Source of the DNA: a virus
Taxonomy: Duplodnaviria; Caudoviricetes
Direction: 5' to 3' (one strand)
IMG/VR virus record: IMGVR_UViG_2531839534_000003
DNA length: 64,000 bases
Both the position numbers and the translations under genes were made by a program. Numbering within the stretch: position 1 is the first letter of the stretch; each line of letters starts with the position of its first letter. The notes under the pieces are model-generated. The model did no database searches. It had not been told where the DNA came from and worked only from the letters and a program-made list of their open reading frames with translations. Below, piece by piece: positions 834 through 4,678 of this stretch.

Positions 834-1913
834 TTATTCAATTAAATTTAGGGGCACAAAAGGGGCAGTTTGATTATTTATCAATTCTTTCATATTAACA
901 GTAGTGTGACTGTAAATAGATAATGTTGTCTTAGGGTCTGAGTGTCCTACTCTATCCATAATTGCGTTTAGAGGTATACCTTTTTCTGCCAAAAACGAAA
1001 TGTGCGAATGCCTGAATAAATGTGTGTGGTAATCACCGTAAATTTTTAGGCGCTTATTGATATACGCATTTAAAATTGGCAAACCTTTTGAGTTTGGGAA
1101 AACAAATTCACTCATTTTATTTTGTCGATTAATGATTTCTATAATGTTATCAGATACCGAAATTTTCCGAGTTGATTTTTTGGTCTTTGTTGTCGTGATT
1201 TCTCTAGTGTGGAAATCGTAAGTCGCATTAATCAAAATTTCTTTATTTTCAAAATCAATCTTGTCATAAGTCAAGCAAGCTAATTCACCGTACCTCATTC
1301 CAGTCAAAAACATTAATAAAACGATATCTGAGAGTTTTTGTTCATCATTGGCTATCATTCTACCGCAGAGGTCGTAAACCTCGTTAGAAGTTAAATAAAG
1401 TACCTTTTCAGGCATATATTCTTCTTTTGGTTTAGGGACTAAAACATTGTCGGTTGGATTGCTTGTCAAGTAGTCCATTTGTATAGCATAAGCAAAGATA
1501 GCATGTAGTCTTTTTCTGCATTTGTGCGTAACATGATAAGAATTGTTTTTTAATAGTTTTTCAATAAGCAGTCTGACATCACGTTTAGTTAGCTTGCTAA
1601 TAATCGTTTCATCTGGCAACACGGTTGCTATATGACTGTCAGACACTAAATAACCACGTTTTGTGGAATCTTTGACCGTCGGAATCCATTGATTTAAATA
1701 CTCACGCTTTAATTCACCATATGTCATTTCGGAATGATCTCGTGTAGCAAGCTTATCTTCAATTTTTTCTTGCAAGATAAGATTAGCTTTTTTCTGCGCT
1801 TGGCTCGAATTTTTATCTAATGTGACAGACACTTTTTTGTATTTTTTGGTCAATGGGTCAGTATAACGTTCAATATATTTAAACTTTCCATTTGATAATT
1901 CTTCAATCCACAT
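834..1913 (-). CDS. int: Tyrosine integrase
   Basis: TGMRYGE (R), HLFRHSH (HxxR), GHSD and YSH catalytic motifs; N-terminal arm-binding domain. Confidence 0.97.
   Translation of the reverse strand: MWIEELSNGKFKYIERYTDPLTKKYKKVSVTLDKNSSQAQKKANLILQEKIEDKLATRDHSEMTYGELKREYLNQWIPTVKDSTKRGYLVSDSHIATVLPDETIISKLTKRDVRLLIEKLLKNNSYHVTHKCRKRLHAIFAYAIQMDYLTSNPTDNVLVPKPKEEYMPEKVLYLTSNEVYDLCGRMIANDEQKLSDIVLLMFLTGMRYGELACLTYDKIDFENKEILINATYDFHTREITTTKTKKSTRKISVSDNIIEIINRQNKMSEFVFPNSKGLPILNAYINKRLKIYGDYHTHLFRHSHISFLAEKGIPLNAIMDRVGHSDPKTTLSIYSHTTVNMKELINNQTAPFVPLNLIE
850..868 (+). repeat. Putative integrase arm-type site, left
   Basis: AGGGGCACAAAAGGGGCAG, nearly repeated at 41862-41881; within the int 3' end as is usual for attL arms. 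Confidence 0.65.
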
Positions 1914-2065
1914 TGATAAAACCTTTCATTTTTGCTAAAATAGAGTACAAGAAAAGCATCTAAACTAGTCGAATTCGACCGGTTTAAACATCTTTTCTAA
2001 ACGTAATTGCCTTACACTCAAAGATTGCCGTCTGGAGAGTGTAGGGTGTTTTTTGTTATAAATAT

Positions 2066-2149
2066 AAAAAATAAAAGCCACACTCTTTTGAGTATGGCTT
2101 ACTGTCTGCTAGAGACAACGTCTTCTTTACTGCTCGCTAGGAGCTATGT
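2066..2149 (-). ncRNA. Candidate ~85-nt small RNA with two stem-CUAGC-stem-AGUAA repeats and an intrinsic terminator
   Basis: Own promoter at 2156-2184; repeats GCTC-CTAGC-GAGC-AGTAA and GTCT-CTAGC-AGAC-AGTAA; terminator AAGCCATACTC-AAAA-GAGTGTGGCTT-TTATTTTT; no ORF. Confidence 0.65.
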
Positions 2150-2155
2150 AATTGT

Positions 2156-2184
2156 AGTATAAGCCATTATTTTTAAAAAGTCAA
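2156..2184 (-). promoter_or_regulatory. Near-consensus sigmaA promoter driving the small RNA
   Basis: TTGACT-17 nt-TATACT on the minus strand. Confidence 0.75.
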
Positions 2185-2192
2185 TAAAAGCC

Positions 2193-2969
2193 TTATTTTC
2201 CTAAGTTAACTTGCAATTGTTGCTTATCTGAAAAATTAAGGACCTCGATATTATATTCTTTCAAAGCAATTAAATGATCGTCTTTAATATTTTGATATCC
2301 TTCATCGCTTACAATAATGTAAAGTTGTTCTTTATCACCATATTCATTTTTTCTAAACTCTGATGTATCGAGCCAACTTGAAAGAATTGTATCTACTTGT
2401 TGTTTTGTTATATTATTATGAACCCTAGCAATTTTTGATATCCCTTTACTCATGAATACAAAATTAAATCTATGTTCTAATCTAGACTTTCCAGCTATAG
2501 AGAAAGCAGGAAAAACATTATAGGAATCATTTTTCATAAAGTAATTTTTTACGTCATCTAAAAATTGAGATTTTACGTTATTTGGGTGTAGTTGTATAAA
2601 ATCATAAACATTGATTAAAAGTTGAGTCATATCATGGATAGTTTGTCCAAGGTTTTTTTTACTAGTGTTTCTTTCGATAGATTCTCCGACAAGTTCAAAA
2701 CCATTGTACTGTAGAAGAGAAGAAAATAAGTCTTTTCTTCTACCTTTGTTTGACATATCTATACCGTTGATAGAAAGGTTCCATAAAGTATAAGAATTAT
2801 CTGTAATCGTTAGTATTCTTCCGTTTGTTTTAACTGAAAAGCTAATAGATTCTCCAAAAGGATCAACGAAAGGAGTAATAACTTCTGTATGGTCAGCCGA
2901 GATTTCGTTAAAAACAGCATTTTCATACACGAAATCCAAATATTCTTTTTTTATTTCATTTGCATTCAT
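2193..2969 (-). CDS. DUF1828 (N-terminal) / DUF1829 (C-terminal, restriction-endonuclease-like) protein
   Basis: VITPFVDPFGESI...ITDNSYTL N-terminal pattern and FSIAGKSRLEHRFNF C-terminal pattern recognised by eye; lysogeny-module position. Confidence 0.7.
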   Translation of the reverse strand: MNANEIKKEYLDFVYENAVFNEISADHTEVITPFVDPFGESISFSVKTNGRILTITDNSYTLWNLSINGIDMSNKGRRKDLFSSLLQYNGFELVGESIERNTSKKNLGQTIHDMTQLLINVYDFIQLHPNNVKSQFLDDVKNYFMKNDSYNVFPAFSIAGKSRLEHRFNFVFMSKGISKIARVHNNITKQQVDTILSSWLDTSEFRKNEYGDKEQLYIIVSDEGYQNIKDDHLIALKEYNIEVLNFSDKQQLQVNLGK

Positions 2970-2993
2970 TACAGACTCCTTTCTTTTTATTGA

Positions 2994-3464
2994 TTATAAC
3001 AAATCTTGTTGAATTTTGATAGAAGCAGATTCTGGATTGTTTACATTCGTAAACTCTAAGAGGTTTGACAAATTTTCTAAAAAGTCATCACTGTTTTTTA
3101 TGGATTCATATGGTAAGGGGTAAGTTTTATAGTGAGTAGTTTCATCACCTTTCAAGTAATACTCTTTTTCAGAAAAAATATTAATTCTATTCCCCCAGAC
3201 CCGTTCTCCGTTTGCGTTCTTATGAAATTTATTGTTTAAATTAATTCTTAAAAGAGTATAATTGTGTTCTGTTTCTCTCAAATGAAAAACTTTACTATTA
3301 TCACTATAGAAATAGTTTAAAATAAATCTGGTATTATTTATACCGACAATATCTATTTCTCCTTTACTATTATTAGTAATAACAACATTATGATTTTTTG
3401 CTATTGTTTTTATCATCTTGATTAGTTGGTAGGCTTGATCATCATTAATCAAAAGTTCCTTCAT
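2994..3464 (-). CDS. DUF6978-like hypothetical protein
   Basis: LLRINLNNKFHKNANG motif resembles the LxRLD..G..H.NPDG pattern; directly upstream of the DUF1828 gene. Confidence 0.5.
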   Translation of the reverse strand: MKELLINDDQAYQLIKMIKTIAKNHNVVITNNSKGEIDIVGINNTRFILNYFYSDNSKVFHLRETEHNYTLLRINLNNKFHKNANGERVWGNRINIFSEKEYYLKGDETTHYKTYPLPYESIKNSDDFLENLSNLLEFTNVNNPESASIKIQQDLL

Positions 3465-3525: not shown

Positions 3526-4308
3526 TTAAACTGGGTATTTCCCAGTAACTCTACCAATAATCCTAAAGTCGCTATTAGCATCAATCGGAATATCCTCGTA
3601 CTTGCTGTTTAGACTATGTAGAAACGCTCCGTTTTCGTTAATAAGCAACTGTTTAATATAAGCATCTCCATAGTATTCAAATACACCAATATTGCTATCT
3701 GAAAGTTCCACAGATAATTTTACAAATACGTAGTCACCAGAATAATACTCTGGTTCCATAGAATCGCCATAAACCGGTATGACAAAATCAGCGTCATAAT
3801 CGACTGGCAATTCAATCTGTTCAACTTGTACATCATTTAGATACTGCCCTGTACCAGCAGAAACGGGGTGGTCGTAATAATTATAGGTATAGTATATAAT
3901 TTGAGGTTCGTTTACTGTATTCTTACTGTTTTCTACTGTATTTTGTTCAGATAAAAGATTTTCACCGTAACTTATCCAATCACTATGACGAGGTTCTTTG
4001 AGCTCTTCATCTAGTAGAGCGACTTTGTTGTTGATATTAGGAGCAGTAGAAGTTTTGCTTGATTTAAAACGAGGGTCGATATCTGATTTTAATACTCCGA
4101 AAAAATCAGCTATTTTTTGAACGTTACCAGGTATTGGCAAGGATGTTCCTTTTATATATCCTGTCAAGGTGCTAGGCGGAATGCCCGTTCCTCTAGACAC
4201 ATCAATCTGCTTCCTGTTTTGAGTAATCAAGAAGTGATTTATGTTGTTAGAAATTATTTTCATATACTCTAAATCTTGAGGAGTTAACTTTCCTCTGCCT
4301 CTAGCCAT
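3526..4308 (-). CDS. cI: CI-like repressor (XRE HTH + S24 autopeptidase)
   Basis: HTH QIDVSRGTGIPPSTLTGY; SAGTG cleavage region; GDSMEP serine and YIKQL lysine. Confidence 0.93.
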   Translation of the reverse strand: MARGRGKLTPQDLEYMKIISNNINHFLITQNRKQIDVSRGTGIPPSTLTGYIKGTSLPIPGNVQKIADFFGVLKSDIDPRFKSSKTSTAPNINNKVALLDEELKEPRHSDWISYGENLLSEQNTVENSKNTVNEPQIIYYTYNYYDHPVSAGTGQYLNDVQVEQIELPVDYDADFVIPVYGDSMEPEYYSGDYVFVKLSVELSDSNIGVFEYYGDAYIKQLLINENGAFLHSLNSKYEDIPIDANSDFRIIGRVTGKYPV

Positions 4309-4344: not shown

Positions 4345-4437
4345 AGCGTATTAAATCGTATTTTGAAATAAAAAAATATAAAAAATTACGATTTTTTTCG
4401 AAAAACAGTTGACTTTCGAATTAATTCGTATTATAAT
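4345..4437. promoter_or_regulatory. Lysis-lysogeny switch: rightward promoter and three imperfect palindromic operators
   Basis: TTGACT(4409)-17-TATAAT(4432); AGCGTATTAAATCGTA (4345-4360), TACGATTTTTTTCGAA (4387-4402), TTCGAATTAATTCGTA (4415-4430, in the promoter spacer). Confidence 0.8.
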
Positions 4438-4483
4438 TAAATCAAGCTTAAGGAATTAAGCAAAACGAAAGGAGGTACAGCTA

Positions 4484-4585
4484 ATGAAATCTAGGCTAAA
4501 CAAAAAGCCTAAACACAAAGAACTAGAAGTCGAAATCAAGATTCTTTGGTTTAAGCTTAGGATTCACTACTCAATAGAGTGGTGA
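4484..4585 (+). CDS. 33-aa basic peptide MKSRLNKKPKHKELEVEIKILWFKLRIHYSIEW (not in ORF track)
   Basis: GAAAGGAGG RBS; first ORF after the lytic promoter. Confidence 0.6.
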   Translation: MKSRLNKKPKHKELEVEIKILWFKLRIHYSIEW

Positions 4586-4678
4586 CAATACCAAGAGGGC
4601 TAAGAAGCCCTCTCCCCTAACGGGGTAAGTTTAGTTTAGCACATTGGCTGTATCTCCGCAAGAATGAAAGGAGAGTAA

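What the first reader, a model, noticed from the sequence alone, without database searches (positions are those of the whole stretch)
2066..2184. Promoter-defined ~85-nt RNA made of two covarying CUAGC-loop hairpins, with no partner gene downstream
Seen: on the minus strand a near-consensus promoter (TTGACT-17-TATACT) precedes GCTC-CTAGC-GAGC-AGTAA and, 10 nt later, GTCT-CTAGC-AGAC-AGTAA, then a terminator. The stems differ in sequence but both pair, while the loop and AGTAA tail are identical, which points to selection on RNA structure and a protein-recognised repeat. Established: promoter, short repeat RNA, terminator is the layout of RNA antitoxins of type III-like/Abi RNase systems, where the toxin gene normally follows. 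Here the integrase leader follows instead. Inference: either an orphan/decoy antitoxin RNA that protects the phage from an Abi RNase, or an RNA partner of the upstream DUF6978/DUF1828 pair.
Basis: partly seen in the sequence, partly recalled or inferred. Interest (0 to 1): 0.72.

Follow-up and report, generated by a model that had tools for sequence, protein, structure and literature searches.

The report
Orphan partner RNA of MazF-like defence gene
The small two-hairpin RNA gene is real, and in related phages the same kind of RNA sits directly behind a MazF-like (Sma-type) anti-phage nuclease gene; this Streptococcus prophage keeps the RNA gene intact but has lost the nuclease gene.

Summary
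On the minus strand, TTGACT-17-TATACT (2184-2156) drives an ~80-nt RNA. It has two 4-bp hairpins with CUAGC loops, each followed by AGUAA, and a strong terminator (2100-2066).

The RNA matches no Rfam family. It is not a type III antitoxin by that family's defining features. It is not tied to the upstream DUF6978 + DUF1828/1829 pair, which matches the PADLOC candidate system PDC-M24.

The 125-bp cassette (2065-2189) is 96.8% identical to one in S. dysgalactiae phage Javan166. There, and in 13 of 13 further contigs, it directly follows a 232-aa MazF-fold gene homologous to Sma of SaPIpT1028.

Across 51 distinct Sma-homolog loci, 50 have a promoter at the stop codon, a small RNA (median ~82 nt) and a terminator. 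The control rates are 1.6% and 5.6%. An 8-sequence alignment shows full pairing and compensatory changes in both stems.

The 84-kb record holds no MazF-like gene, so this copy is an intact orphan. All five variable sites among its alleles avoid the functional parts.

My best reading is a protein-binding, antitoxin-like RNA, kept here as a decoy or as a leftover terminator. Whether it is an antitoxin is not shown.

This scan noted the Sma-plus-RNA pairing earlier on other DNA.

The parts
2156..2184 (-). Sigma-70-type promoter TTGACT-17-TATACT of the small RNA. The predicted transcription start is near A2149.
   Evidence: Both hexamers are identical in all alleles (window, L048, Javan166 type). 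An equivalent near-consensus promoter at the stop codon is present in 50 of 51 distinct Sma-homologue loci.
2127..2144 (-). Hairpin 1 (GCUC-CUAGC-GAGC) plus tail AGUAA.
   Evidence: Columns 9-12 pair with columns 18-21 of alignment A5. All cells pair, and 3 of 4 pairs show changes on both sides.
2117..2126 (-). Single-stranded purine-rich linker (AGAAGACGUU). The AGAAGA(C/U) part recurs in relatives L159, L160, L161, L167 and L173.
   Evidence: One allele (L048) has G to A at 2119.
2099..2116 (-). Hairpin 2 (GUCU-CUAGC-AGAC, extendable by U2117-A2103) plus tail AGUAA.
   Evidence: Columns 37-40 pair with columns 47-50 of A5. All cells pair, and 2 of 4 pairs show changes on both sides.
2066..2100 (-). 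Intrinsic terminator: an 11-pair stem with an AAAA loop, then UUAUUUUUU. It also ends the mRNA of the upstream cargo genes.
   Evidence: It is invariant in all copies.
2065..2189 (-). The whole mobile cassette (promoter, RNA, terminator). It is 96.8% identical to Javan166 and its relatives, while both flanks are unrelated.
1913..2057 (+). Neighbour, not part of the RNA. A convergent plus-strand unit holds promoter TTGATA-17-(TG)TAAAAT, which overlaps the int start codon. Its terminator hairpin is at 2010-2052, followed by a T run. It is a candidate antisense RNA to the int leader, of the Spy779816 type.
   Evidence: PMC4829319.
2193..3464 (-). Upstream cargo that sits where the MazF-like gene lies in other phages: the DUF6978 gene (2994-3464) and the DUF1828/DUF1829 gene (2193-2969). 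Together they match PADLOC candidate system PDC-M24 A/B.

Best explanation
**What it is.** The element is a real, separately transcribed gene for an ~80-nt RNA. It belongs to an uncatalogued class of small RNAs that, in prophages and satellites of Streptococcus and Staphylococcus and in further IMG/VR viral contigs whose hosts were not looked up, lie directly behind Sma-type MazF-fold anti-phage nuclease genes.

**Usual layout (shown).** A near-consensus promoter starts at the stop codon of the nuclease gene. The RNA carries two short hairpins, each followed by an A-rich tail, about 28 nt apart, and ends at a strong terminator. The nuclease mRNA would therefore carry the same sequence as its 3' end, and the extra promoter would add a surplus of free RNA.

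**How it most likely works (inferred).** The two hairpin-plus-tail modules are bound by the MazF-like protein; solved MazF proteins are dimers, by textbook knowledge. The RNA holds the protein inactive or tunes it, in the manner of a type III antitoxin but with a different fold family, the reverse gene order and its own promoter.

**In this prophage (shown).** The nuclease gene has been exchanged for a PDC-M24 pair. The junction lies within about 5 bp upstream of the -35 box, and the RNA gene is left complete.

**What the orphan does here (inferred).** Either it neutralises Javan166-type Sma nucleases carried by co-resident or competing elements (a decoy or immunity role), or it is a retained leftover whose terminator now closes the cargo operon.

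**My odds.**
- Member of the Sma-associated RNA class: 0.9.
- The RNA acts on the MazF-like protein: 0.5.
- The orphan is kept for a decoy role: 0.25.
For: **Portability.**
- The 125-bp cassette is 96.8% identical to Javan166, L004 and L006, with unrelated flanks.
- The integrases are only 27% identical, and the upstream genes differ.

**Link to the nuclease gene.**
- All 13 contigs that encode the Javan166-type 232-aa protein carry the cassette right after its stop.
- They show at least six different downstream contexts.

**What that protein is.**
- It matches PemK_toxin (E = 1e-9) and phrog_1412 / phrog_1936.
- The AlphaFold model (pLDDT 88.4) matches solved MazF structures at TM 0.65-0.77 by target.
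- It aligns at 29% identity, E = 2e-14, with PT1028 ORF005.
- ORF005 is the only PemK-like ORF in the SaPIpT1028 record.

**Class-wide association, protein to RNA.**
- 50 of 51 distinct homologue loci have a promoter plus a terminator just downstream.
- Controls: 4 of 255 shuffles, and 16 of 286 other ORFs in the same loci.
- The -35 box lies a median of 4 nt after the stop, and the median RNA length is 82 nt.
- 36 of 50 show the two-hairpin layout, against 58 of 1000 shuffles.

**Class-wide association, RNA to protein.**
- 13 of 14 type B hits and 25 of 38 type C hits lie behind a long Sma homologue.
- Another 12 type C hits lie behind a PemK-type ORF, of 144 aa in most copies (PF02452, 40.9 bits).
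- That leaves 2 orphans in 52, and both have damaged promoters.
- The SaPIpT1028 sma locus shows the same layout.

**Structure.**
- In alignment A5, 64 of 64 cells pair. Five of 8 pairs change on both sides, and none changes on one side only.
- Slid controls pair at 22-55%.
- Covariance model R1 finds one hit in the window. It also finds L161, which was not in the seed, at the expected place (E = 0.0012).

**Selection in the orphan.**
- The five variable sites among the window, L048 and Javan166 alleles all fall in the promoter spacer, the 5' leader or the linker.
- My estimate of that happening by chance is about 0.006.

**The RNA does not follow int.** In 17 of 49 loci no integrase lies within 1.3 kb downstream.
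Against: - No experiment shows the transcript in this strain, or any RNA-protein contact.
- Sma was published as a single-protein system that works from a plasmid clone. I could not read the original paper, so I do not know whether that clone included the RNA.
- The long Sma proteins have an N-terminal helical hairpin and a helical insertion that could inhibit the enzyme without any RNA.
- The 144-aa PemK relatives have a 50-codon ORF abutting their start (L260 2655-2807). It could be a protein antitoxin.
- The copies of this RNA type are almost identical, so their conservation may partly reflect recent transfer.
- The two hairpins are only 4 bp long.
- The window sequence was part of the seed of model R1.
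- Whether the host genome carries a Sma gene elsewhere could not be checked, because that genome is not held.
Confidence: 0.55

Rival explanations
1. Leftover with a housekeeping role. The RNA gene lost its partner when the cargo was swapped and has no target here. It persists because its terminator ends the cI / PDC-M24 operon and shields int from read-through.
For: - No MazF-like gene is present in the 84-kb record.
- Phages Javan411, Javan271 and Javan423 have the same int leader and manage without any cassette.
- The cassette may simply be young, since all copies are nearly identical.
Against: - A terminator alone would not need an intact near-consensus promoter or both hairpins.
- Two orphan alleles (window and L048) differ at three cassette sites, and none of these touches a hexamer, stem, loop, tail or terminator.
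- The two truly decayed orphans in other subfamilies have lost their promoters.
- The arrangement PDC-M24 plus RNA occurs with at least two downstream contexts.
Confidence: 0.25
2. Base-pairing regulatory RNA. It pairs with a phage or host mRNA, or with the sma mRNA in the native context, as in type I systems or the c4 RNA of phage P1.
For: - Prophage small RNAs between int and the repressor gene are expressed in S. pyogenes (PMC4829319).
- The linker is single-stranded and conserved.
Against: - No complement of 12 nt or more exists anywhere in the 64-kb window apart from U-tract matches.
- The best duplexes look like background.
- Across 16 loci the RNA does not pair better with its own sma start region than with non-cognate ones. 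The means are -18.1 and -15.9 +/- 4.8 kcal/mol, and the Javan166 type ranks 10th of 16.
- Stems vary while pairing is kept, which points to shape recognition rather than sequence recognition.
Confidence: 0.1
3. Cis-acting leader of int. The promoter, a protein- or polymerase-binding hairpin pair and a regulated terminator together set int expression (nut/put-like antitermination).
For: - In the window and in 32 of 49 relatives an integrase gene follows on the same strand.
- The hairpins resemble boxB in size.
Against: - In 17 of 49 loci no integrase lies within 1.3 kb.
- In L143-L149 two unrelated genes follow the cassette.
- The cassette boundary ends exactly at the U tract, while int leaders vary freely.
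- No alternative antiterminator pairing is visible.
- I found no shared candidate antiterminator gene between this phage and Javan166.
Confidence: 0.05
4. RNA partner of the upstream DUF6978 + DUF1828/1829 (PDC-M24) pair.
For: Adjacency in this phage and in nine other assemblies of the same prophage.
Against: - The identical RNA follows a MazF-fold gene instead in 13 of 13 other contexts.
- The one distinct PDC-M24B homologue locus fetched (34% identity, two records, L053 and L054) ends next to a tRNA gene with no such RNA.
Confidence: 0.03

Closest known systems
Type III toxin-antitoxin systems (ToxIN, AbiQ/antiQ, CptIN, TenpIN) and the orphan 'pseudo-ToxI' of phage PhiTE (Blower et al. 2012; cited from my own knowledge)
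   Same: - A short, promoter-driven, terminator-bounded RNA made of two repeated modules sits beside an endoribonuclease-type abortive-infection gene.
- The nuclease has no protein antitoxin annotated next to it in the long Sma-type loci examined.
- A phage can carry the RNA alone, which in PhiTE defeats ToxIN.
   Different: - The units here are hairpin-plus-tail modules that share only the loop and tail (about 13 of 28 nt), not near-identical tandem repeats.
- The nuclease gene lies upstream of the RNA.
- The RNA has its own promoter instead of a leaky terminator.
- The partner has the MazF/PemK fold with helical additions, and no ToxN domain is present in the record.
- Processing of the RNA and complex formation are untested.
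[quoted passage not shown] 2022, as cited in PMC12409344 and PMC13660305)
   Same: - The protein that normally precedes this RNA is a homologue of the only PemK-like ORF of SaPIpT1028.
- It sits in the same lysogeny-side cargo slot.
- The SaPIpT1028 locus has the same promoter, two-hairpin RNA and terminator behind the gene.
   Different: - Sma is described as a one-gene system. No RNA component is mentioned in the two papers I could read.
- The window has the RNA without any Sma gene.
Spy_sRNA779816 (Rfam RF02589), a Northern-verified small RNA between int3 and SPy_0938 of S. pyogenes prophage 370.3 (PMC4829319)
   Same: - Same intergenic region, between the cargo genes and int.
- It shows that small RNAs from this slot are expressed in lysogens.
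- Members lie immediately next to the cassette in Javan166 (76.1 bits) and other loci.
   Different: - It is on the opposite strand, convergent with the RNA studied here and antisense to the int leader.
- It has no sequence relation to that RNA.
- The window's own copy scores only 23.8 bits.
AbiF with its RNA RCd22 in the C. difficile phi027 prophage (title and abstract of PMC12373285, seen; paper not read)
   Same: A prophage abortive-infection protein controlled by an adjacent structured RNA.
   Different: A different protein family, and the RNA lies upstream of the gene. I did not test any relation.

Membership tests
Type III antitoxin RNA (ToxI / antiQ / CptI / TenpI) | Two or more near-identical tandem direct repeats of about 34-45 nt | tested here: not met
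   There are two 28-nt units that share only the CUAGC loop, the closing G-C pair and the AGUAA tail. Three stem pairs differ between them. No Rfam ToxI-type family matches, even at E <= 10.
Type III antitoxin RNA (ToxI / antiQ / CptI / TenpI) | The toxin gene lies directly downstream of the RNA's terminator | tested here: not met
   In the window the integrase gene follows. In native contexts the nuclease gene lies upstream of the RNA.
Type III antitoxin RNA (ToxI / antiQ / CptI / TenpI) | The partner toxin belongs to the ToxN/AbiQ, CptN or TenpN families | tested here: not met
   PF13958 (ToxN_toxin) is absent from the 84-kb record. The usual partner is PemK/MazF-fold. CptN and TenpN profiles were not searched.
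Type III antitoxin RNA (ToxI / antiQ / CptI / TenpI) | The toxin cleaves the RNA into units and stays bound in an inactive complex | not testable with these tools
   This needs biochemistry.
Sma-associated small RNA class (undescribed; defined here and in earlier notes of this scan) | An ~80-110-nt RNA with two short hairpins (the first starting 10-13 nt after the -10 box in most copies, period mostly 26-29 nt) and an intrinsic terminator | tested here: met
   Window: hairpin 1 starts 11 nt after the -10 box, the period is 28 nt, and a terminator follows. The same layout occurs in 36 of 50 class members.
Sma-associated small RNA class (undescribed; defined here and in earlier notes of this scan) | Sequence and structure homology to copies that follow Sma genes | tested here: met
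   96.8% identity to the Javan166-type copies. The window aligns without shifts to L159, L160, L162, L169-L175, with compensatory changes. Model R1 scores it at 57.9 bits, but the window was in the seed.
Sma-associated small RNA class (undescribed; defined here and in earlier notes of this scan) | The promoter starts at or near the stop codon of a MazF/PemK-fold gene | tested here: not met
   The upstream gene is the DUF1828/DUF1829 gene (PDC-M24B). No MazF-like gene is present in the record. This unmet feature is what makes the copy an orphan.
Rfam families (release 15) | A score at or above the gathering threshold of any family on the minus strand at 2066-2152 | tested here: not met
   The best match is STnc400 at 16.7 bits against a threshold of 80. 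Nothing matches the homologous RNAs in 23 other loci either.
Nut/put-like antitermination leader of int | Always lies in the leader of the regulated operon | tested here: not met
   In 17 of 49 related loci no integrase lies within 1.3 kb downstream. Other genes or tRNA genes follow instead.

The most novel reading that the evidence does not exclude
The 'single-protein' Sma-type MazF-like defence systems of Firmicute prophages and satellites are really protein-plus-RNA pairs. That would make them a new kind of RNA-antitoxin system with a MazF-fold toxin, the reverse gene order and a dedicated RNA promoter. This prophage would then carry the RNA alone as a ready-made antidote against the Sma nucleases of rival prophages.
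Probability: 0.25. Interest if true: 0.85.

Novelty: new variant of a known kind. Interest (0 to 1): 0.62.

Why it matters
**For Sma.** If the RNA controls the MazF-like nuclease, a published 'one-gene' defence system has an overlooked second component. Solo MazF-like genes in many prophages would then gain an explanation for how their toxicity is held in check.

**For this phage.** An intact orphan copy is a natural experiment. It separates the RNA from its protein, and it offers a simple test of RNA-based counter-defence between temperate phages of pyogenic streptococci.

**For annotation.** The RNA class is missing from Rfam, so these genes go unannotated.

Tried and rejected
- **Rfam** at permissive thresholds, on the window region and on 23 related loci: no family for this RNA.
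- **Two-unit motif scan** (CTAGC-N4-AGTAA twice):
  - IMG/VR gave only Javan166-type copies.
  - One genome per prokaryote species (185,579 genomes) gave 27 hits, none in a record titled Streptococcus. The eight I printed were unrelated tandem repeats.
  - JGI metagenomes gave 83 hits, none homologous by blastn.
- **Single-hairpin 18-mers** in IMG/VR: only chance hits beyond the known copies.
- **Antisense targets in the window:** no complement of 12 nt or more, and the duplex scan looked like background.
- **Pairing with the sma start region:** no preference for the cognate partner.
- **tRNA anticodon-arm mimicry, CRISPR-repeat or tracrRNA mimicry, and an attP or Xis site:** considered by eye and dropped, because the loop rules, repeat sequences and position do not fit.
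- **Small peptide in the RNA:** there is no ATG. Only a TTG frame with a poor ribosome-binding site exists.
- **Extended 5' pairing (UUAC with GUAA)** from the energy fold: not kept in Javan166.
- **Streptococcus species genomes:** I could not reach them. The window is a virus record and the host genome is not held.
- **MAFFT** could not put the IPP9-type RNAs in structural register, so the covariation count rests on eight sequences.
- **The original Sma paper** is not in the library.

Full report
**1. The observation**

The parts are:
- TTGACT (2184-2179), a 17-nt spacer, TATACT (2161-2156);
- GCTC-CTAGC-GAGC followed by AGTAA (2144-2127);
- a 10-nt linker;
- GTCT-CTAGC-AGAC followed by AGTAA (2116-2099);
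- an 11-pair terminator stem (2100-2075) and a T run.

The consensus scan lists both the promoter and the terminator. Promoter-like hits are as common here as in shuffled sequence (21 against 19.8), so the promoter needed comparative support. The 87-nt stretch folds into exactly three hairpins, with z = -4.33 against shuffles. The exact motif CTAGC-N4-AGTAA occurs only at these two places in the window.

The genes on the same strand are:
- the cI-like repressor (3526-4308);
- a DUF6978 gene (2994-3464);
- a DUF1828/DUF1829 gene (2193-2969);
- the integrase (834-1913).

The two DUF genes match the PADLOC candidate system PDC-M24 A and B.

**2. A portable cassette**

blastn found one phage with the element, Streptococcus phage Javan166 from S. 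dysgalactiae. The match is 96.8% identical and covers window 2065-2189, from about 5 bp before the -35 box to the end of the T run. Outside this stretch the two phages diverge:
- The integrases are 27% identical.
- The upstream genes are unrelated.
- Over the whole genomes only a few other short segments match, all at lower identity.

The same prophage as in the window, with an identical intergenic region, turns up in eight further assemblies. A ninth (L048) carries a variant allele. Phages with the same int leader (Javan411, Javan271, Javan423) have a 105-nt gap and no cassette.

**3. What normally stands in front of it**

In Javan166 the gene that ends just before the promoter encodes a 232-aa protein. 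Several results identify it as a MazF-fold, Sma-type protein:
- It has a PemK/MazF match and PHROG matches labelled MazE-like and MazF-like.
- All 13 contigs encoding exactly this protein, or its L006 variant, carry the cassette right after the stop codon.
- What follows the cassette differs: integrases of 359, 362, 374 or 388 aa, or two unknown genes and then int.
- Its AlphaFold model (pLDDT 88.4) is a MazF fold with an N-terminal helical hairpin and a helical insertion.
- The best solved matches are the MazF proteins of S. aureus, B. subtilis and M. tuberculosis.
- It is homologous to ORF005 of the SaPIpT1028 record (E = 2e-14).
- ORF005 is the only PemK-like ORF in that record.

**4. The pairing is general**

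Distant homologues (24-46% identical) in Javan178, Javan446, Javan132, IPP9 and 315.1 share one layout:
- a TTGAC-type promoter at the stop codon;
- a short RNA with two hairpins, each followed by the same short tail;
- a terminator.

A profile search of IMG/VR gave 80 loci. The counts are:

| Test | Result | Control |
|---|---|---|
| Promoter near the stop codon plus terminator within 170 nt, 51 distinct downstream regions | 50 | 4 of 255 shuffles; 16 of 286 other ORFs in the same loci |
| Two-hairpin layout | 36 of 50 | 58 of 1000 shuffles |
| RNA type B motif found behind a long Sma homologue | 13 of 14 | |
| RNA type C (IPP9 type) motif found behind a long Sma homologue | 25 of 38 | |
| Type C motif found behind a PemK-type ORF (144 aa in most copies) | another 12 | |

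The -35 box lies a median of 4 nt after the stop, and the median RNA length is 82 nt. The misses in the two-hairpin test have other hairpin arrangements. In the RNA-to-protein direction, two true orphans remain in 52, and both have damaged promoters.

The SaPIpT1028 sma locus has TTGACT-17-TATATT, then GGGU-CAAGC-ACCC, AGAGA-UUAAAU-UCUCU and a terminator.

In 17 of 49 loci no integrase lies within 1.3 kb downstream. The RNA therefore travels with the MazF-like gene, not with int.

**5. Structure**

The window RNA aligns without shifts to seven RNAs from Sma loci (alignment A5). For the two 4-bp stems:
- All 64 cells pair.
- Five of eight pairs change on both sides.
- None changes on one side only.
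- None fails to pair.

Sliding the partners by 1-3 columns gives 22-55% pairing.

A covariance model built from A5 gives one hit in the 64-kb window. It also finds L161, which was not in the seed, at the expected place (E = 0.0012).

The loops stay similar (CUAGC, CAAGC, CUUGC, CUWGA). The linker keeps AGAAGA(C/U) in several subfamilies.

No Rfam family covers any of these RNAs.

**6. The window copy is an intact orphan**

No MazF-like gene was found in the record by any of three searches:
- the profile of seven Sma homologues;
- Pfam PemK;
- tblastn, with Javan166 as a positive control.

Similarity to Javan166 stops about 5 bp upstream of the -35 box.

Among the window, L048 and Javan166 alleles five cassette sites vary:
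- one in the promoter spacer;
- three in the 5' leader;
- one in the linker.

None is in a hexamer, stem, loop, tail or terminator. About 45 of the 125 positions are non-critical by this count. On that basis the chance of such a spread is about 0.006 (my calculation).

**7. Mechanism**

Shown:
- the gene layout;
- the association with MazF-fold genes;
- the conserved structure.

Inferred:
- The two hairpin-plus-tail modules are protein-binding sites for the MazF-like protein.
- The RNA restrains or tunes it.
- Because the promoter sits at the stop codon, the nuclease mRNA would also end with the RNA sequence. The extra promoter would give an excess of free RNA, which type III systems achieve with a leaky terminator.

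Base pairing is not supported:
- There is no complement of 12 nt or more in the window.
- There is no preference for the cognate sma start region.

For the orphan, the two live options are a decoy against Javan166-type Sma or a leftover that still serves as the operon terminator.

**8. Comparison with known systems**

The RNA fails the defining features of type III systems that could be tested: repeat identity, gene order and toxin family. I therefore file it as working like them, not as a member. The closest described protein system is Sma. The phage PhiTE pseudo-ToxI (from my own knowledge) is the precedent for an orphan antitoxin RNA in a phage.

The convergent plus-strand unit next to the cassette belongs to the Spy779816 family in Javan166 (76.1 bits) and in other loci. 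That family was verified by Northern blot in S. pyogenes (PMC4829319). The window's own copy scores only 23.8 bits.

**9. Earlier notes of this scan**

After I had found the association, a look-up showed that follow-up agents had reported Sma-type genes followed by an unannotated RNA on other DNA. Those notes supplied the name Sma. I checked the homology and the SaPIpT1028 locus myself.

Noticed in passing
window 1913-2057 (+): A promoter TTGATA-17-(TG)TAAAAT overlaps the int start codon and faces away from int. A terminator hairpin lies at 2010-2052. Together they make a candidate ~105-nt antisense RNA to the int leader. Equivalent units in Javan166, Javan178, Javan446, L175 and L224 reach the gathering score of Rfam Spy779816, a Northern-verified S. 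pyogenes prophage RNA. The window copy scores only 23.8 bits.
   Followed up: partly
window 2193-3464 (-): The DUF6978 and DUF1828/DUF1829 genes match PADLOC candidate defence system PDC-M24 A and B (E = 1.6e-10 and 2.7e-48). They occupy the slot that holds the Sma-type gene in related phages.
   Followed up: partly
window 2182-2191 and 2070-2079 (-): The 10-mer GGCTTTTATT occurs just before the -35 box and again at the end of the terminator, so the cassette is bracketed by a short direct repeat. It may mark the recombination junction. Javan166 has only TTTTTATT at the left side.
   Followed up: no
L260 2655-3243 (+), and 11 similar IMG/VR loci: A PemK/MazF protein (144 aa in most copies) is followed by the same IPP9-type RNA that elsewhere follows 265-aa Sma-like proteins. 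A 50-codon ORF ends 1 nt before the start of the PemK gene and could be a small protein antitoxin.
   Followed up: partly
L143 3397-4271; L144 3313-4163 (+): In some Javan166-type prophages two genes of unknown function (phrog_10787 and phrog_6701) are inserted between the RNA cassette and int. The junction lies inside the Spy779816-type terminator hairpin, so this hairpin appears to be a recombination hot spot.
   Followed up: partly
L161 173-238 and 520-584 (-); L214 2494-2621 (-); L180 2541-2611 (+): Other structured RNAs lie near Sma-homologue loci: two type II hammerhead ribozymes, a DUF3800-I RNA and a skipping-rope RNA. All score above their Rfam gathering thresholds.
   Followed up: no
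window 4431-4675 (+): The leader of the early lytic transcript, with a 33-codon ORF and a hairpin, is 93% identical between this phage and Javan166. After the RNA cassette it is the most conserved shared segment.
   Followed up: no
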